From contig CM119371.1 in assembly GCA_051294905.1 (NCBI GenBank), forward strand, positions 8,806,001 through 8,870,000: a stretch of DNA of 64,000 bases. The letters run 5' to 3'. The stretch comes from Botryllus schlosseri. Lineage: Eukaryota. A program made the translations under genes and the position numbers. Of the stretch, positions 3,651 to 60,349 are shown one piece after another. Below the pieces are notes generated by a model. The model saw only the letters and a program-made list of their open reading frames with translations, made no database searches and was not told the DNA's origin. The number at the start of each line of letters is the position of its first letter. Position 1 is the stretch's first letter.

Positions 3651-4564
3651 TTATCATAACAATATTTATAGTTGGCTTTGATGATACATGCTAATTATCG
3701 GCTATTTGGTTCCAATGAAGCTTTTGCTTGTGTTTTGATTATATGTAGAGGGTTGCATTTGAAACAGGTGACGTTTTAGAACGCTTTGTTACAAATTTCT
3801 TGTACAATGTTTTAGGCAAATTTCAATTGTGTTCAATCAAATGTGATATAATCATGTCTAAACTGACTAGATAGTTTGAAAAGACATGTAATATGAAGCT
3901 TCTGACGACTTGCACTATAGAGATAGTCGCATAATACGGTATGTAATGTTTAAACCCATCGACATCGTGGTTGGTTCAACAGTTTTAACACGCGGGGTAT
4001 GTATCAGCTAAGCCTGTGGATCGTCTGATCGTCTGATCGTCTATTGTGTAACTATCACTTATTTAAATATATTTGGAATTCGATGCTCTTTTCGAGTTCA
4101 TAACCTGTGACAGTGAAAGACACGTATAATGTAGTTGCCTGAAAACGTTCTCGCTCTATTCAACGTAACTAGCTACTGAGTTTATTTTGCAGCATACTGC
4201 TCCGATAGCTTGTCGGTGTGATTGTGAAAGTGATAGAATTCAACGAATTAAAAAAACATAGTATGTAATGACTTGGTATGATGTAGGTGGTTTTTTCGTA
4301 TTCATGACGTGTTCGACTATTTTATGGTAAGTCATAAGGATGGTGCGAACGTGAGGTGTGCGGACCTGAGATATTTAGAGGCTGATGTTTGCAACCGAAT
4401 CTACACCAGTTGCTTTTCATCGTGTTCCGTGGAGGCTTGTGGGCCCCAGAGCGGGCCTCTGTATCAGGGGTTTCCTGGAGATCGAGACACACACTCAACT
4501 CATACATATGACCTGTGTTGACACGCCCGTCTTGGCTATCATTGGTTGCAGGTATTTAGTAGGT

Positions 4565-5397
4565 AGGGATGGTGTGAACGTGAGGTTCACGTTCGCGTTC
4601 TGTGTGTGAACCTCAGAAATTTAGAGGTTCACGTTCACAAACAAACCTTGGTAGGTTCTGCACTGTGAACCATCTTCATTTATTGCAATTTTCCGCGTCA
4701 TTGTATCATCTTTGGTTTAAACTTTTAGGTCTTTGCAATCCATTTTCGGACCGCTCTATGCAAGGCGCTGGCAGCATAATAAAAATCAACACTAAACGAG
4801 CATGCACCTTGCGAAAAAATTTAAGCTGATTTATAAGCGAAAAATACAGATCATTCTGGAAACCTCGTGTGTTCCGCATAACATTTGTTGTGTCATAAAA
4901 CAAATCTGCCAGATTGGGGTGTTGGCTATTGTTTAACTTGGTTTTGAGATATTTTCTGTAGCAAGTATAAAAACCGTATTCTCAAAAAGATCAGAATTAA
5001 TGCAGTAACAGTCTGACGTCTTGAGAATATATTGTCAAGTCTAACCTAGACCGTTGGAGCGCAAGCTTATATTTCCTTGCGAGTTCTCGTCGACATTGTC
5101 GGCAAAGCGACGGAAGATACACATTTTATGGAATTGTTACAGCATTAGATTGTTCCAGTTGATACATTTGGTGACTCAGCCTGTACTTCAACATTGCAAC
5201 ATAATGTGGTCTGATTCACATCTACGTATGGTCAGCATGGTGTAGATTTGTATATTACGTTACGGAAATGTATGGTTGGAATTAACAATGTGACGGCACG
5301 TGCCATCATTGATGCGTGCTAGCGATCGTGTTGGGAACGTTTGAAAATGATTCGTGTTCAGACGAACCGGAACCTTTTGGGGGTTAGCACCATACTA
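4565..5397 (+). mobile_element. hAT-type MITE, family A (TAGGGATGGTGTGAAC termini), degenerate 3' end
   Basis: Starts tagggatggtgtgaacgtgaggttcacgttcgcg and ends ...gggttagcaccatacta; colinear with 14138-15125. A more decayed 5'-end copy precedes it at ~4336. Confidence 0.75.
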
Positions 5398-5451
5398 CGT
5401 TAGAATTGTTGGATAACAAAACAAAATTATTCCGAGGCAACGAGCATCTAG

Positions 5452-5523
5452 TAGCAGAGGATGGTGTCGATCCATCGACATCCGGGTTACTAGCCCAGTG
5501 CGCTTCCGCTGCGCCACTCTGCT
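5452..5523 (-). tRNA. tRNA gene with initiator-Met body but AGT (Thr) anticodon; functional variant or pseudogene
   Basis: Reverse complement reads AGCAGAG TG GCGC AGCGGAA GCGC A CTGGG CTAGTAA CCCGG ATGTC GATGG ATCGACA CCATC CTCTGCT A. This is a 72-nt cloverleaf with A1-U72, three G-C pairs closing the anticodon stem, and A54/A60, all eukaryotic tRNAi hallmarks. TTTT runs lie about 25 nt downstream. Confidence 0.85.
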
Positions 5524-6489
5524 TACCGGCATGACAGTGCGACTAGAATTAAAACGAGTTCATGCTCTATGAATCAGATCAGGCTTGTCGAATCGAATCG
5601 AGAGACATAGCGGGTTGACAAAGCGGGTTCGACTATCATTTTCCAGTAACACTTATCACTAGACAAAGTTTTTGCAACTTTTGCAACTTTTTTACAGCTA
5701 CCGGGAAGGAGCTTCCTAAATACGAAGAATTTATGTAGTATGGTATTTCAAGCTGTTTGAAGAAGTTTTATTTTTCCACTTTTCGCAGCTTTTCCTATTT
5801 ATTTTCAGGCGACTTTTTATTGCAACTTCGATCAAGTATTGCGCAAAATGTAAAATCGTGATTTAAAAAACACGATGTTTAACTATTTCAACAATTGTTC
5901 TCTCTTTAGTTTTCTCTACAAATAGCAGTGTGATGGATTAGTTGCATGCCGATGTTATCTATGGCGTAATGGCTTGAATGCCAGAAGTTCAAAATCACAG
6001 CAAAGCACGACAGTGCCTGAACAATGTATAAGTGGATCGTTTGTTTGATTCAGTACGCTCACATTTGAAGTCATTTCCTCTTTGACGGACGTTCAGGCGA
6101 GACCGGTGACAATTACATTTTCCCTGGGTCACCTTATCAGGTTATTGATTTAGTTAAACTTGCCAACACCTAGTTTTTCTGCAATGGCTTGGGTCAAATT
6201 TGCAGACCTAGGGGTTTGGGGTGTGGGATTTGACCTGTTTTATGAACTATCACATCGCTGTTTTTTTTGCGATGATTTCTTCATTCCGTTATTTTCTTGC
6301 TGCTTACCGGCAAATCATGTATTATATGCCGGTCTCGCCAGGCCGTCCGTGAAATGGGAAAGTACCAAATTTGACAGCTCTACAGGAGCTGACAGCGAAA
6401 TATTGCCACGCAGGTTTCAAGCATCAAGATCATAAAAATGTAGGCTATTCATGTAACATACCCTGATATATCTAAAATTTTATAAGTGG

Positions 6490-6810
6490 AACCCTTTACT
6501 CTGACTTTTATTAAAACTAAGTGTAACTTTTCCACGATTTAAGTGCAACAAAACTGTGCCTAACTTATGACTGTTACCTGCCTTGTCAGACTTGTACAAA
6601 CTACTGGATTTTCAATAAGTGTAACCAGAATTAGAATTAAAACTACTCAATTTATAAAACTCGCAGCTATAAAAAGAACTAGAACTACTAGCTTTTTAAA
6701 ATCCGCAAATAGAGCTATAACTAGAACTACTCACTTTGTAAATCTCACCACTACAACCAGAACTACTCCCTTTTCAAAATTCGCAAATTAGGAACTCAAA
6801 CCAACAACAT
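6490..6810. repeat. Degenerate AACTAGAACTACT-type subterminal repeat array, probably a DNA transposon remnant
   Basis: Repeated aaactact/agaactact motifs, e.g. 6677-6690, 6719-6731, 6760-6767. Confidence 0.4.
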
Positions 6811-7433
6811 TTGGAAATTAATACACCGCAGGATAAATATTGTAAGCTTTTTACTGAGTCCGCCGACGTATTCCCTGCTTATCATTCTCAGAAAAATAAT
6901 TCAAATGGAAGGGGTTCCGAGTTTGAAAGGTGAGAGATTTCGACCCCAAAATCCACGCGCAGAATACGCCACGATCAGTATAGCGATGACTCTCAGAAAG
7001 TATAGTGACTAGGTGGCGAGATATCGAGGTGGTATAATCCACACCTGCAACACCAGCGGGTTACGGGTTCGAGTCCGACCGAGGTTGACTCCGGAATTCC
7101 CACCTAAGTGTTGGAGGTTTATCTATAGGCTCCTCCTCGCCATCTCATACGCGAAAGCAGTGTCTTTTAAAAACCCTAGAAGTGGGCCGTGCTACAAGTC
7201 AGCAAGGTGAATTAAAAGAATGAAGAAAATTGACCTGGTGTAAATGACCATAGTAGTCGAAAACACCATGAATAGCCTACCTCAAACGACAAGAACAACC
7301 TTATTCAACAGAACACTGCGATATCCCAATTCACGCAGATAGACGACACGTGTTCGGCAACTAGTAATATTTTGGAATGTGCAACTGCAACTAGAACTGG
7401 AACTACTCATAAAGATGTTAGTTAGTTGACAAT

Positions 7434-46722: not shown

Positions 46723-48083
46723 GTCGATTCTTAGCTTATTTGAGATGCCATATTTATGTCGTCTGTTTATTGGTCGATTCAAGGCTGATTCGAAGTAGCA
46801 TTGGCGTCTTGTCTGCTCATTGCTCGATTTTAAACCTCTTGGTTGCGCAACGTTGAAACACTATCTTGTCGCGGTATAAAGTGCACCTGGTTGTCAAATT
46901 TGTTGGCTTTTGTAATCTGTAAGTAACATTGACGTGTATCTACATACTTTATATATTGTTTTATCGTGTAAGTTTGCTTGATACGAGTTGATATTTTGCT
47001 TGAACAAAACGAAATTCATCGTCTATGATAGAGATTGCATCAGACTGGATCTTATACACATGTTGGACCTGTCGTCGGGTTGTCGCAATAACATTGAAAT
47101 AAAACAGTTTTAGAAGTGGCGCACTATTATAAGAAGTGGCATAAGACAACACTTCAGGAATAATAAATATTCATGACAAATTTATCGAAGCCGTCTATAA
47201 TTCGCGCTTACACGCAGTTTAATCGAGATATTTTTTAATGTTTCTTGAAGTATCCGCGGCCCACGTGATGCAGTTGTCCAAATCTAATCTAGTCAGGATT
47301 CTGGTTTGTCGGTATACTCGTAAGGTGAATGGGTCAAGTACAACTCTCCTAATCCAACATATTTATAACGCTGGAATATCGCCACATGGGGAGCACGAGG
47401 CCGCTTGTCGTAGATACGCTGCGACACAACTCAGAATGGATGTAATCACTGTTAATAGACTATTAGGAACTTCTGCAGAGACTTGGTCTTGCAAAACATA
47501 ATTTAAAATAACATTTTTCGGAATATTACGGTTTGATTGCATGTTCACACGCTCATATCACGAGGAACGCTATGATCGCGCGATCGAATCAACGTAGCAG
47601 ACTCTGGCCGACCGCAAACATTGCGATATTCGATATTCAACAAAATTTCAGATCGAAATTGATTTTTGCTCTAATCATTGGGAATCAGCCCATGTCGCTC
47701 ATCTCTCGCTTCGTCGATCTATGAAACTTCTTCAGATAGGAAGCCGCGAGCTTAAAGCTATAATTGTGTCTCAACGTCCATTACGTTTCATTTAAATTGC
47801 AGAGATTGGGGGTTGCAAATTATCCAAGAAACTTTAATGCGAAGTAAATCTATCATGGTTCCTATAACATGCGCTTGCGAACATCAATCAATTTGAGGAA
47901 GTAGCTGTGCGAAGTGCTGTTGCTTTTAAGCATTGATCCCTGCTGAATCACCAAAGAATCTTCAATACCAAGACATGTTGCTGCGGGAGTGGTGCTACAT
48001 GGTCTTCATACAGCTGTATAGTTCAACAGGCAAAATTGGATCAGAAGATCAAAACTATTGAACCTAATCTGCTATAACGCAGA

Positions 48084-49088
48084 ATGAACAGCACTTTTAG
48101 CGCCGAAGGAATGAACCGAGCCGTAGCAGCGTCCAAAATCAGCGATATTGAACACACGGTCGCAGTAGTCCTGTTTGCCTTCCTGACGATTCTAGGCACA
48201 CTCGGAAGTACAACCATGATTGCCATCTTGCTGAAGATGGAACGAACCGCCTTCCACGTCATTCTGATCGGGATGTGTGTTTCGGATATACTGTCAGCTT
48301 GCAACAGCCCATTGTATGTTGTCGTACAAATTAGTTCGGCAAATTTCACATTGCCCCCTTTTCTGTGTTCCGCCACCATCACCATCGATCAATACACCAC
48401 ATTTGGAACACTAGGTCACGTGTTGTTGCTGAGTTACATGAGATTCCGAAATATAGTAGGCGGTCCCATAATTCCGAATCGAAGTAATGGAGATGATGCA
48501 AAACGCTACACAATACTCGTGGTTCTAACGTGGCTATTCTCTGCGTTCATTTCGATCCCCTTTCCACTCGCAATTAGATCTGCTGTGACTCCGCAAGGGG
48601 TCGTGTGTGAAGGTAGGAAAGACACTCATGTAGCAATCAAGTTCATGACAGCGTGTTCAGTAACGGTCGGAGTTATCGTTCCAATTGTGATGATAGTTGG
48701 ATACCGTTCCCGCCTCATCATATTCTTGACAAATAGAACATCTCCGTCAAGCAATCGCGATTCCGCCAAGGAAAAAAATGCGGTCAATCAACTCTTGGCC
48801 ATCGCCGTCACTGTTTTAATCGGATATTGCTGTGAGTACGGAACCAAATTTTACTTCATTTATCGCTGGAAAGCGGGTGTAGACAGATCGAAAATACTCG
48901 TGGCTCTGGCAGCGCATGGTGTCGTGCGTATCACAGAATGCATCAATCCCTTGATTTATTATTTGGGTTCGAAAGAGTTACAGAAGACAGTAACGTCTTG
49001 GTGCAGATCAATGAAGAGACGGAATAGAGTTAGCCCTGACTTCCCCGCTGCGGTATCAACCAAAGTCGAAATTATCACTGAGGATTGA
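48084..49088 (+). CDS. Intronless rhodopsin-family (class A) GPCR, divergent orphan, 334 aa
   Basis: Seven hydrophobic helices; N-terminal NST sequon, TM2 CVSDIL, Cys at top of TM3 and in ECL2, MRF at the DRY position, TM4 Trp, TM7 NPLIYY, helix-8-like SKELQK. Confidence 0.9.
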   Translation: MNSTFSAEGMNRAVAASKISDIEHTVAVVLFAFLTILGTLGSTTMIAILLKMERTAFHVILIGMCVSDILSACNSPLYVVVQISSANFTLPPFLCSATITIDQYTTFGTLGHVLLLSYMRFRNIVGGPIIPNRSNGDDAKRYTILVVLTWLFSAFISIPFPLAIRSAVTPQGVVCEGRKDTHVAIKFMTACSVTVGVIVPIVMIVGYRSRLIIFLTNRTSPSSNRDSAKEKNAVNQLLAIAVTVLIGYCCEYGTKFYFIYRWKAGVDRSKILVALAAHGVVRITECINPLIYYLGSKELQKTVTSWCRSMKRRNRVSPDFPAAVSTKVEIITED

Positions 49089-50670: not shown

Positions 50671-51104
50671 ACATTTATACCTTATCCCATTAACATTTCA
50701 TTATCTACTTTCCGTTGTTGGTCACTCCTCTATTACTCAACCATGATCATCTGATAAGGATGCTATTGAGATTCAATAATTCCATCGACTTCCTTCACCG
50801 CAAACATTAATTGCGAATTGATAACACGTCCCGCATTGCGCCATAAAATTTTCTTACAGCAAGACTAGACAGATAACAATGTATTCTTGTCCGGCCATAT
50901 CAGTTAATCACCAAGTAGCAAATAGAACATGCACTTGGTGTTATCTCAATGAGCATCAAATGGAAAGCGGCCACAGAATTCGACAAAAATCAAAGTAAGC
51001 TCGATGGTCATTGCAAAGTCATAAGTTAACATGATGTAGATTGGCTCACATATACTGAGAAGTTGTCGAGGTGAATACAGCGAAACGTACTAAGAGAAGG
51101 CAAG

Positions 51105-52090
51105 ATGGAAGACATCGTGGTTCTTGCTCTGCAGACGGCTGGCATCGCTCATGGGCCTAATAGCTCTATACCCGATACAATTGAGCATGTACTTCGCGAT
51201 AAACAACGAAGACAAGACAACGCGGAATCAAATATTTCTCGAAAAAGGAAACTGCCGCTGAATTGTGGTCACGAGACAAAGTATTTTACCGATAATGAAA
51301 AGGTCAGCGGTAAAAAGAGGAAATTGAACAATACCAGCATATCCTGTCTGGAGGAACGCAAGATCCCAGAACAGGACAGCGGTAGAACGCTCGTTCGACA
51401 CGATAGTGGCAAGAGGAAAGCACTGAATTCGAATTCACAATTCAGTGAAAAGGCATGTTGCAGAGAAGATTCCGAGATCCCCGATGAGGACATCCTTGCT
51501 GCCAGGAAAATTGCCTTGTTCGCTTACGAGAATGATCAGTGGATAAACGTTTGACATAAGAAGGAAACCATCCCAAGTATATCCGAAGCCAGCTTTACGA
51601 AGTGTCAACGTTAAAATCATCCCCGTTGATGTCTGCATCTGAACGATTCAGTACCAGGGCTGTCGTTCGCACGGCGAAGAAACGATTTGTCAAAGGTGAC
51701 ACGTCAAACGCGAATGCATATGAATCCACATTGGAGCACAAGTCGGCATCAAAATATTTAGTAAGGGATAATGAGAAAATGGAGACATCTGAATTGGTTT
51801 TCAATAAGTGTAAAACAACGCCTATCATGGAATACAAAGAAACGGGGTCGGTGGAAATCAATGCCACCCACACCACATCGGCTCCTCCTGTGCCACTAAA
51901 CTGTTGTTCCAGGTTGTTAAGATTGCGATCGAGATTATCAAGAGTAACAAACATTGAAACTCTCTTCGAAATATCTCGAATCGTCATGCAATCATTCGGC
52001 AAGACTGATGTGGAAAATGACTTGACTTTTGACCTTCGCGATCTTGACAATGAGGTGATCACGCATATTGAACTTGTGTTGGATTTATGA
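51105..52090 (+). pseudogene. AF9/ENL-like (AHD/ET domain) gene, copy 1, disrupted by a nonsense codon and a frameshift
   Basis: C-terminus LLRLRSRLSRVTNIETLFEISRIVMQSFGKTDVENDLTFDLRDLDNEVITHIELVL matches the ANC1-homology/ET fold pattern (...FDLxxLD). TGA at 51552 where copy 2 has TCA; 2 extra nt near 51580. Confidence 0.7.
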
Positions 52091-58327: not shown

Positions 58328-59369
58328 CTAGAAACATACAGTATATCTTTTGACACCCTGAGTAGATACAGCTGTAAATGAGTAAGGCATACATGACGCG
58401 CGAGATAGTTACAGTCTACTAGTCTAGATTGGTTATTTATCTATTACTTATCGGGCAACAGTACCGCAAAAGAAAATCATGATATTACCTGGATTAATTA
58501 TGGTCGATGTTATAAGAAGTATGGAATTTATTATTGGCTGTGCAATGAATCATTAATTGGAAAACTGATTTACACCTTATCCTAGGGTTACCATACTTCC
58601 TCCTCCTTTTTGAGGTTTTTGAAAATGTCCTCCGAGGACGTCTATATATCCTCATTTTTGGCAATTTGTCCTCCATTACAGCTTTTAGAACTAAGATAGG
58701 GGTCAGATTCGAGTTAAAACGGGCATAAATGACGGTAAATAAGAAATTCGTCGTCCGAACGTAAGTGACGACCTTTTTTCAACCAACGGATAAATGTAAA
58801 AGGAAACTGTAATTGGGTGGGGGTTTGAGCCGGAAAGTTGACCTTATTTTCAGTCAACCGATTTCAAAGTGGGAAAATTTTACTAATTTTTTCGTATTTA
58901 CTGTACTCCTTTCCCGATTCCAAAATATGGTAACCCTAGCGTATACCTTATCCTATTAACATTTCATTATCAACTTTCGGTTGTTGGTCAACCTTCTATT
59001 ACTCAATCATGTTCACATGATAAGGATGCTATTGAGATTCAATAATTACATCTACTTCCTTCGCCGCAAACATTAATTGTGAATTGATAACAGGTCGCAC
59101 ATTGCGCCATAAAATTTTCTTACAGCTAGACTAGACAGACAACAATGTATTCTTGTCCGGCCATATCAGTTAATCACCAAGTAGCAAATAGAACATGCAC
59201 TAGGCATTATCTCAATGAGCTCAAATGGAAAGCGGCCACAGAATTCAACAAAAATCAAAGTAAGCTCGATGGTCATTGCAAAGTCATAAGTTAACATGAT
59301 GTAGATTGGCTCACATATACTGAGAAGTTGTCGAGGTGAATACAGCGAAACGTACTTAGAGAAGGCGAG

Positions 59370-60349
59370 ATGAAAGACATCGTGGTTCTTGCTCTGCAAA
59401 CGGCTGGCATCGCACATGAGCCTAATAGCTCTATACCCGATACAATTAAGCATGTACTTCGCGAAAAACAACGAAGACAAAACAACGCGGAATCAAATAT
59501 TTCTCGAAAAAGGAAACTGCCGCCGAATTTTGGTCATGAGACAAAGTATTTTACCGATAATGAAAAGGTCAGCGGTAAAAAGAGGAAATTGAACAATACC
59601 AGCATATCCTGTCTGGAGGAACGCGAGATCCCAGAACAGGACAGCGGTAGAACGCTCGTTCGACACGACAGTGGCAAGAGGAAAACACTGAATTCGAATT
59701 CACAATTCAGTGAAAAGGCATGTTGCAGAGAAGATTCCGAGACCCCCGATGAGGTCATCGTTGCTGCCAGGAAAATTGCCTTGTTCGCTTACGAGAATGA
59801 TAAGTGGATAAACGTTTCACATAAGAAGGAAACCATCCCAAGTACCCGAAGCGAGCTTTACGAAGTGTCAACGTTTAAATCATCCCCGTTGATGTCTACA
59901 TCTGAACGATTCATTACCACGGCTGTCGTTCGCTGTCGAAACGATTTGTCACAAGTGACACGTCAAGTGCGAATGCATATGAATCCACATTGGAGTACAG
60001 GTCGGCATCAAAATATTTAGTAAGGGATAATGAGAAAATGGATAAATCTGAATTGGTTTTCAATAAGTGTAAAACAACGCCTATCATGGAATACAAAGAA
60101 GCGGGGTCGGTGGAAATCAATGCCACCCACGCCATATTGGTTCCTCCTGTGCCACTAAACTGGTGTTCCAGGTTGTTAAGATTGCGATCGAGATTATCAA
60201 GAATTACAAACATTGAAAGTCTCTTCGAAATATCTCGAATAGTCATGCAATCATTCGGCAAGACTGATGTGGAAAATGACTTGACTTTTGACCTCCGCGA
60301 TCTTGACAATGAGGCGATCAGGCATATTGAACTTGTGTTGGATTTATGA
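59370..60349 (+). pseudogene. AF9/ENL-like (AHD/ET domain) gene, copy 2, one frameshift
   Basis: Paralog of 51105-52090; open through the copy-1 stop but has a net 4-nt loss near 59935 (cgctgtcgaaacg vs cgcacggcgaagaaacg). Confidence 0.7.

What the first reader, a model, noticed from the sequence alone, without database searches (positions are those of the whole stretch)
5452..5523. Initiator-tRNA body carrying a threonine (AGU) anticodon loop
Seen: a 72-nt cloverleaf with all four stems paired and oligo-T downstream. Established: A1-U72, the three G-C pairs at the base of the anticodon stem, A54/A60 and the short D loop are eukaryotic initiator determinants, and the vertebrate tRNAi loop is CCCAUAA. 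Here the loop is CUAGUAA, the usual tRNA-Thr(AGU) loop, which needs three clustered changes. The other five differences from the vertebrate tRNAi I recall (U25C, G26A, A42G, G45U, A59C) do not break any stem. Inference: this may be a maintained alloacceptor-shifted tRNA, either an initiator-like tRNA able to read ACU/ACC/ACA after A34-to-I editing or a Thr tRNA recruited from tRNAi. A young pseudogene remains possible.
Basis: partly seen in the sequence, partly recalled or inferred. Interest (0 to 1): 0.85.

Follow-up and report, generated by a model that had tools for sequence, protein, structure and literature searches.

The report
Initiator-type tRNA gene with threonine anticodon
An animal genome carries an intact copy of the start-codon (initiator) tRNA gene whose anticodon loop now reads threonine codons; this rare kind of tRNA identity switch has one published precedent in a fruit fly, and whether the RNA is made or used is untested.

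Summary
A 72-nt tRNA gene lies on the minus strand at 5523..5452 (Rfam tRNA 56.7 bits; ARAGORN Thr-AGT). All 21 cloverleaf pairs are standard. Every eukaryotic initiator signature is present except the anticodon loop, which is C-U-A-G-U-A-A.

Of 129 such genes, 126 carry C33-CAU and none carries AGU.

It is not an assembly error. Contigs from a second sample and study carry AGT on a haplotype with seven flank differences. It is not a SINE, because the flanks sit at single-copy depth.

Function is untested: no relatives' genomes, no tRNA-seq, and no reads in two ordinary cDNA libraries, which is uninformative. It also differs at three positions (26, 42, 59) invariant in 31 canonical initiator sequences, and its terminator is unusually far. 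Both fit relaxed initiator constraint. Three adjacent loop changes and an unbroken fold hint at more than drift.

Best reading: an initiator-gene duplicate shifted to Thr(AGU), tolerated because MetRS and ThrRS both read the anticodon. It is probably weakly used or unused. The precedent is the D. simulans tRNAi CAU-to-CGU gene.

The parts
5452..5523 (-). 72-nt tRNA gene (positions 1-73, position 17 absent, CCA not encoded): initiator-type body with a Thr(AGU) anticodon
   Evidence: ARAGORN; Rfam RF00005 56.7 bits; initiator-only model R1 84.5 bits; all 21 pairs standard
5487..5493 (-). Anticodon loop C32-U33-A34-G35-U36-A37-A38. The anticodon AGT lies at 5489-5491 (act on the + strand). Positions 33, 34 and 35 all differ from the C-C-A of canonical initiator genes.
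   Evidence: 126 of 129 metagenome initiator-type genes have C33-CAU and none has AGU.
5506..5516 (-). Internal Pol III A-box region (tRNA positions 8-19), unchanged from canonical initiator genes
   Evidence: Identical to the canonical sequences over these columns. Those columns were fixed by my search pattern. The box consensus is recalled.
5463..5473 (-). Internal Pol III B-box region (positions 52-62). The only change, A59C, falls at a position I recall as unspecified in the box consensus.
   Evidence: the box consensus is recalled
5418..5426 (-). Two T4 runs (TTTTGTTTT on the minus strand) starting 25 nt past the discriminator: a likely Pol III terminator, unusually distant
   Evidence: Canonical genes have a median of 5 nt and 93% are closer (n=116).
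5480..5480 (-). tRNA position 45 (variable loop): inferred difference between the window and the allele in run X5
   Evidence: Inferred table 8. Piece 11 is clipped after 5479, piece 12 has one mismatch, and piece 13 has a fifth mismatch that is not listed. The base itself was not seen.

Best explanation
This is a real, single-copy, Pol III-type tRNA gene. It arose as a duplicate of the cytoplasmic initiator tRNA gene. Its anticodon loop then changed at three adjacent positions (C33U, C34A, A35G) into the Thr(AGU) loop. Shown here: the initiator body, the Thr loop, an intact fold, intact internal promoter regions, a terminator, and presence in two independent samples.

Inferred: without CAU it can no longer be charged by MetRS, so it has left the initiator-Met pool. 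If it is charged at all, ThrRS does it, since ThrRS reads G35/U36 and accepts A73. A34 would then be deaminated to inosine.

A Thr-charged tRNA reading Thr codons miscodes nothing, so the gene is tolerated. However, the body keeps the features that exclude initiators from elongation (A1-U72, A50-U64, U51-A63, A54, A60). It also lacks the methionine that eIF2 prefers, so it is probably used weakly or not at all.

I therefore read it as a near-neutral, isotype-switched initiator paralogue drifting under relaxed initiator constraint. I do not read it as a proven new decoder.
For: It is a tRNA with full-length, high scores. The initiator-only model R1 gives 84.5 bits, against 101-106 for canonical genes and 73.9 for an internally deleted copy. 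It shows 64 of 72 identity to the class in L021 and 66 of 72 to L020. All initiator signatures are present; they are defined in PMC3950347 (abstract and introduction read) and PMC4425011 (passages).

AGT is confirmed in X1 by a 333-nt contig with 0 differences. In X5, from another sample and study, pieces 5300-5472 and 5461-5672 cover the gene, with 7 listed flank differences and none at 5489-5491. Flank depth is single-copy in both runs: 13.7-16 and 42-71.

Signs of relaxed initiator constraint: G26, A42 and A59 are invariant in 31 of 31 unique canonical sequences at columns my pattern left free, and all three are changed here. The first T4 run lies at the 93rd percentile of distance. One inferred polymorphism in 72 nt against 7 in 292 flank bases gives no sign of extra constraint.

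The identity logic comes from review PMC9976931 (passages). The Met anticodon is sufficient for MetRS. Thr identity rests on anticodon nucleotides plus acceptor pairs, and on A73 in yeast.

Precedent: the D. simulans initiator gene with CAU to CGU, function unknown (10.1101/2020.07.24.220558, section read). Met/Thr is one of only two identity pairs seen more than once among 30 eukaryotic alloacceptor shifts (PMC3923123, passages).
Against: Three adjacent changes giving exactly a Thr(AGU)-type loop are unlikely under independent drift. With 3-5 changes in the other 69 positions, the chance that 33, 34 and 35 all changed is about 8e-5 to 4e-4 (my arithmetic). That points to selection or to one complex mutation.

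C33U restores the U33 typical of elongators. Among the fetched initiator genes, 128 of 129 have C33.

No pair is broken. The chance of that is 0.03-0.08 for 5 random changes and 0.12-0.21 for 3. The general tRNA score is 56.7 against 57.7-58.9 for canonical genes. The cloverleaf energy is -27.2 against -26.1 and -28.3 kcal/mol.

The only two anticodon-changed copies in the metagenome sample each carry a further disabling lesion, L046 in the T loop and L037 an internal deletion. This gene carries none.

The piece boundaries in X5 suggest a second sequence sharing positions 35-73, including the derived G35, G42 and C59 (my reading). That would mean a small persisting subfamily.
Confidence: 0.55

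Rival explanations
1. It is a functional elongator tRNA-Thr recruited (remolded) from the initiator gene. ThrRS charges it, A34 becomes I34, and it adds to the ACU/ACC/ACA-decoding pool.
For: The 7-nt loop is complete and elongator-like, including U33. C33 is present in 128 of 129 fetched initiator genes. A73, G35 and U36 fit the Thr identity elements in the review PMC9976931. The fold and general tRNA score are intact. A possible sister copy exists in X5 (my reading).
Against: It keeps every feature said to keep initiators out of elongation: A1-U72, A50-U64, U51-A63, A54 and A60 (PMC4425011 passages). The acceptor pairs are initiator-type. Only one copy lies in the window, at single-copy depth. 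The terminator is distant. I could not compare it with the organism's own Thr tRNAs.
Confidence: 0.15
2. It is a natural non-methionine initiator. Thr-charged, it keeps the P-site and eIF2/eIF5B determinants and starts translation at ACU/ACC/ACA codons on some mRNAs.
For: All initiator determinants outside the loop are retained. Engineered initiator anticodon mutants start translation at non-AUG codons: PMC11744186 (search listing and start of abstract only), and work in mammalian cells that I recall but did not see.
Against: There is no evidence of expression or of ACN starts. eIF2 prefers methionine (recalled). G26, A42 and A59, invariant in 31 of 31 canonical initiators, are changed, which argues against continued initiator-type selection. 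Promiscuous starts at ACN would probably be harmful.
Confidence: 0.07
3. It is a silent pseudogene: not transcribed, or rapidly degraded, and simply too young to have decayed.
For: The terminator is distant. Three positions invariant in canonical initiator genes are changed. There is no sign of lower polymorphism than in the flanks. R1 scores it below the single-hit variants, 84.5 against 92-99.
Against: The A- and B-box regions, all stems and the T-loop core are intact. The general tRNA score equals that of canonical genes. The cluster of three loop changes is not what slow decay predicts.
Confidence: 0.2
4. It is an artefact: an assembly or sequencing error at the anticodon, or a member of a tRNA-derived SINE family.
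For: None found.
Against: AGT is present in contigs of two samples from two studies, the second on a haplotype with 7 flank differences. The flanks are at single-copy depth. No second copy lies in the window.
Confidence: 0.02

Closest known systems
Drosophila simulans non-canonical initiator tRNA gene, CAU to CGU (10.1101/2020.07.24.220558, section read; first listed as a Met-to-Thr shift in PMC3923123)
   Same: A nuclear initiator tRNA gene whose anticodon now specifies threonine. The body is otherwise intact and the function is unknown.
   Different: The fly gene differs from its paralogues by one substitution (A35G) and is otherwise identical to them. Here three adjacent loop positions are changed (33, 34, 35), giving AGU with U33. 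There are 3-5 further body changes against the nearest canonical sequences I could fetch. No synteny-based orthologue set is available here.
Alloacceptor anticodon shifts / isotype switches of nuclear tRNA genes (PMC3923123 passages; PMC13010820 passages; PMC4981973 passage)
   Same: The body belongs to one isotype and the anticodon to another. The event arose in a multigene family by substitution in the anticodon.
   Different: Most reported shifts are single-base: 71 single-base against 4 two-base in PMC3923123. That paper states that none of its shifts involves initiators. A three-base change in the loop is not among the cases in the passages I read.
Canonical eukaryotic cytoplasmic initiator tRNA-Met
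   Same: A1-U72, C3-G70, three G-C pairs at 29-31:39-41, A50-U64, U51-A63, A54, A60 and the short D loop. Identity is 64-66 of 72.
   Different: The anticodon is AGU, not CAU, and position 33 is U, not C. A26, G42 and C59 replace residues invariant in 31 of 31 canonical sequences.
Human tRNA-Leu-CAA-5-1, a Met-type body with a Leu anticodon, flagged by isotype-model disagreement (tRNAscan-SE 2.0 paper, 10.1101/614032, passages)
   Same: A high-scoring tRNA gene whose best isotype model disagrees with its anticodon.
   Different: It has an elongator Met body, not an initiator body, and a different target isotype.
Engineered initiator tRNAs with changed anticodons that start translation at non-AUG codons (PMC11744186, listing and start of abstract only)
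   Same: An initiator body with a non-CAU anticodon.
   Different: Those are laboratory constructs with demonstrated activity. This is a natural gene with no functional data.

Membership tests
tRNA (Rfam RF00005) | Score at or above the family's gathering threshold, full-length cloverleaf | tested here: met
   56.7 bits against a gathering score of 29, model positions 1-71 of 71; 21 of 21 standard pairs
Eukaryotic initiator tRNA-Met | A1-U72 pair | tested here: met
Eukaryotic initiator tRNA-Met | Three consecutive G-C pairs 29:41, 30:40, 31:39 | tested here: met
Eukaryotic initiator tRNA-Met | A54 and A60 in the T loop; A50-U64 and U51-A63; C3-G70 | tested here: met
   features as listed in PMC4425011 and PMC3950347
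Eukaryotic initiator tRNA-Met | CAU anticodon (needed for MetRS and for AUG pairing) | tested here: not met
   The anticodon is AGU. 127 of 129 fetched initiator-type genes have CAU.
Eukaryotic initiator tRNA-Met | Charged with methionine and bound by eIF2 | not testable with these tools
   Needs biochemistry
Elongator tRNA-Thr(AGU) | AGU anticodon in a 7-nt loop with U33 and A37 | tested here: met
   That C-U-A-G-U-A-A is the usual Thr(AGU) loop is recalled, not tested.
Elongator tRNA-Thr(AGU) | Thr-type body and acceptor pairs; elongator T loop | tested here: inconclusive
   The body scores as an initiator (84.5 bits on R1) and has A54 and A1-U72. No eukaryotic Thr tRNA could be fetched for a direct comparison: there was none among the 17 neighbouring tRNAs in the loci.
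Alloacceptor-shifted (isotype-switched) tRNA gene | Body of one isotype, anticodon of another | tested here: met
Alloacceptor-shifted (isotype-switched) tRNA gene | Syntenic orthologue or paralogue with the ancestral anticodon | not testable with these tools
   No genome is held for the window or its relatives
tRNA-derived SINE / repeat | Many copies sharing the flanks | tested here: not met
   Flank depth is single-copy in X1 and X5. There is one copy in the window.

The most novel reading that the evidence does not exclude
The organism keeps a small subfamily of initiator-bodied tRNAs with threonine anticodons: this AGU gene plus at least one sister copy that shares positions 35-73 but has another base at position 34. 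The sister copy is hinted at by the piece boundaries in run X5. These tRNAs would be made and Thr-charged. They would act either as natural non-Met initiators at ACN codons or as a second, independently evolved kind of tRNA-Thr.
Probability: 0.1. Interest if true: 0.9.

Novelty: new member of a known kind. Interest (0 to 1): 0.5.

Why it matters
Initiator tRNA is among the most conserved RNAs. Natural copies with a non-Met anticodon and an intact body are very rare. I found one published case, in D. simulans, and none with AGU in the collections I could scan exhaustively for that loop.

If the RNA is made and charged, it would be a natural test of two questions so far addressed only with engineered tRNAs. 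First, can an initiator body be re-aimed by its anticodon alone? Second, do cells tolerate a non-Met initiator or an initiator-shaped elongator?

If it is inert, it still shows why Met-to-Thr is a recurrent, harmless landing for shifted tRNA genes: both synthetases read the anticodon.

Tried and rejected
- **Own genome:** none is held. I therefore could not do a genome-wide tRNA census, find the species' own initiator or Thr genes, or test synteny.
- **Earlier notes of this scan:** nothing by place or by sequence. A word search gave only conceptual analogues in phages.
- **RNA holders:** no RNA holder is listed. Two cDNA libraries laid as raw reads (X9 about 6% read, X13 about 13% read) gave 0 reads over 5300-5663. 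All 13 laid reads fell on the repeat at 5664-5699. Such libraries rarely capture tRNAs, so this says nothing about expression.
- **Exhaustive scans for the AGT loop in an initiator context:** 0 hits in metagenome contigs, viral contigs and genome contigs. These collections are poor in animal DNA, so the blank does not show absence in relatives.
- **Records behind the loci:** not held, so no eukaryotic Thr tRNA could be fetched. The 17 neighbouring tRNAs in the loci included no Thr.
- **Decayed initiator copies nearby:** weak R1 hits and short repeats at 4335-4648 share only an 8-nt word with the tRNA. Rejected.
- **Local template for the changed loop:** none found in the window.
- **Literature search for the anticodon-arm string:** 0 papers.
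- **Phylum:** two atlas look-ups say animal, phylum undecided.
- **Nameki 1995 on yeast Thr identity:** not held. I relied on the review instead.

Full report
**What is there.** The window holds one tRNA gene, on the minus strand at 5523..5452. ARAGORN reads tRNA-Thr with anticodon agt. Rfam's general tRNA model gives 56.7 bits (gathering score 29, E 1.4e-9) over the full model. No second copy lies in the 64 kb, either by a 23-mer search with 3 mismatches or by an unfiltered scan with an initiator-specific covariance model.

Numbered in the standard way, with position 17 absent, all 21 cloverleaf pairs are standard: 20 Watson-Crick plus U28.G42. The gene carries A1-U72, C3-G70, G29-C41, G30-C40, G31-C39, A50-U64, U51-A63, A54, A60 and A73. 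These are the features that PMC3950347 (abstract and introduction read) and PMC4425011 (passages read) name as initiator signatures. The anticodon loop is C32-U33-A34-G35-U36-A37-A38. CCA is not encoded.

**Comparison with real initiator genes.** No genome is held for the window, so I fetched initiator-type genes from metagenome contigs. The search pattern fixed 33 body positions and left positions 16, 25, 26, 33-36 and everything from 42 onward free.

- Loop positions 33-36 are C-C-A-U in 126 of the 129.
- One gene (L092) has U-C-A-U.
- One (L046) has C-C-U-U and also a T-loop change.
- One (L037) has C-C-A-A and an internal deletion.
- None has AGU.

That this class is the vertebrate one is my recollection and comes from no call. 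The closest sequence, L020, differs at six positions and shares C25 and U45 with the window.

**Model scores.** I built an initiator-only covariance model from 31 unique canonical sequences.

| Sequence | Initiator-only model R1, bits |
|---|---|
| Window gene | 84.5 |
| Canonical genes | 101-106 |
| Other variant copies (L092, L098, L046; L051 has an altered 3' end) | 87-99 |
| Deleted copy L037 | 73.9 |

Part of the window's score is by construction, because the training set was selected with a pattern taken from this gene. On the general Rfam model the gene scores 56.7, against 57.7-58.9 for canonical initiators. The energy of the cloverleaf is -27.2 kcal/mol, against -26.1 (L021) and -28.3 (L020).

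**Not an artefact.** One search listed six DNA-type holders in three studies. I laid two of them.

In X1, possibly the assembly's own sample, a 333-nt contig covers 5361-5693 with no difference.

In X5, from another sample and study, pieces 5300-5472 and 5461-5672 cover the gene. Seven differences from the window are listed in 292 single-copy flank bases: 5332, 5348, 5373, 5537, 5550, 5552 and 5640. None is listed at 5489-5491. Differences close to a piece's end are not listed, so I checked the chain of overlapping pieces. Piece 11 is clipped after 5479. Piece 12 (5452-5490) has one mismatch. Piece 13 has five mismatches of which four are listed. One difference at 5480 (tRNA position 45) explains all three, which leaves the anticodon identical. 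I did not see the base at 5480.

Flank depth is 13.7-16 in X1 and 42-71 in X5. The gene is therefore not embedded in a repeat family.

**A lead I could not close.** In X5, depth rises from 89 to 130 exactly where the 31-mers lie wholly inside the tRNA's 3' end (5452). It falls to 70.6 exactly where they begin to include 5491, which is position 34. Nothing else is laid over 5492-5523.

Branch points at those two places imply another sequence in that sample. It would share positions 35-73, including the derived G35, G42 and C59. It would have a different 3' flank, a different base at position 34 and a less similar 5' part. This could be a sister gene with a BGU anticodon, which is also threonine, or a truncated copy.

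In X1 the contig is unbroken. That fits if the window's U45 removes all shared 31-mers.

**Evidence on constraint.**

*Signs of relaxed initiator constraint:*
- At columns my pattern left free, G26, A42 and A59 are invariant in 31 of 31 canonical sequences, and all three are changed here.
- The first T4 run starts 25 nt after the discriminator. The median is 5 nt, and 93% of 116 canonical genes are closer.
- One inferred difference in 72 nt against 7 in 292 flank bases shows no excess conservation.

*Signs of more than drift:*
- None of the 3-5 body changes breaks a pair or touches a signature nucleotide. The chance of no broken pair is 0.03-0.08 for five random changes and 0.12-0.21 for three, which is weak evidence.
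- The three loop changes are adjacent. With 3-5 changes in the other 69 positions, the chance that 33, 34 and 35 all changed independently is about 1e-4 (my arithmetic). This suggests selection or one complex mutation.
- I found no local template for such a mutation.
- C33U is notable because 128 of the 129 fetched genes have C33, while U33 is the elongator norm (recalled).

**Likely mechanism.**

*Shown:* intact internal promoter regions, intact fold and a terminator.

*Inferred:* The review PMC9976931 (passages) says the Met anticodon is sufficient for MetRS recognition. It says Thr identity rests on anticodon nucleotides and acceptor pairs, with A73 mattering in yeast. The gene therefore cannot remain a Met acceptor. 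It has part of the Thr identity set (G35, U36, A73), with initiator-type acceptor pairs.

A Thr-charged product reading Thr codons would not miscode, which explains why the gene is tolerated. The retained anti-elongation features, and the absence of methionine for eIF2 (recalled), argue for low use in either role.

I put 0.55 on a near-neutral isotype-switched paralogue, 0.20 on a silent pseudogene, 0.15 on a working elongator Thr, 0.07 on a working non-Met initiator and 0.02 on an artefact.

**Relation to what is known.**
- Alloacceptor shifts are established. PMC3923123 (passages) reports 30 in eukaryotes and states that none involves initiators.
- A later preprint (10.1101/2020.07.24.220558, section read) shows that one of those shifts, in D. 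simulans, is in fact an initiator gene changed CAU to CGU by one substitution. Its function is unknown.
- PMC13010820 (passages) shows isotype switches both segregating and fixed in Caenorhabditis, and mentions no initiator case in what I read.
- My searches found no description of an initiator body with AGU.

I file the gene as a new member of the known kind, an initiator-to-Thr anticodon shift. It is more derived than the fly case.

**Limits.** I had no relatives' genomes, no tRNA-seq and no eukaryotic Thr tRNA for a Thr-model score. The phylum is undecided beyond animal. Supplementary tables of the cited papers were not opened and might list further initiator shifts.

Noticed in passing
window 5664-5699: A roughly 34-nt T-rich element (GCAACTTTT-type) about 140 nt upstream of the tRNA. 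It has summed contig depth of about 15,000-252,000, against 14-71 for its surroundings. It is also the only part of the laid stretch hit by RNA reads, always as part of longer unrelated reads. It is probably the end of a very abundant mobile element or a low-complexity motif.
   Followed up: partly
window 6599-6811: Degenerate 42-nt tandem repeat, about 3-5 copies at 63-73% identity.
   Followed up: no
window 48078-49088 (+): Uninterrupted 336-codon frame encoding a rhodopsin-family 7TM receptor (Pfam 7tm_1, E 1.9e-17).
   Followed up: partly
window 51075-52090 and 59340-60349 (+): Two near-identical tandem copies, about 8.3 kb apart, of a two-part open frame. Its C-terminal part weakly resembles the ANC1 homology domain (20 bits, below the 27-bit cut-off). 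In the second copy the two parts overlap in different frames.
   Followed up: no
L020 (18-114) and L059 (41-113): In two metagenome contigs the initiator gene is followed within about 6 nt by a second tRNA: an intron-containing Tyr-GTA in L020, and another tRNA in L059. These are closely packed tandem tRNA pairs.
   Followed up: no
L046 (10-81) and L037 (151-216): These are the only other anticodon-changed initiator-type copies in the 129 sampled: CTT with a T-loop change, and CAA with an internal deletion. They are examples of ordinary decay.
   Followed up: partly
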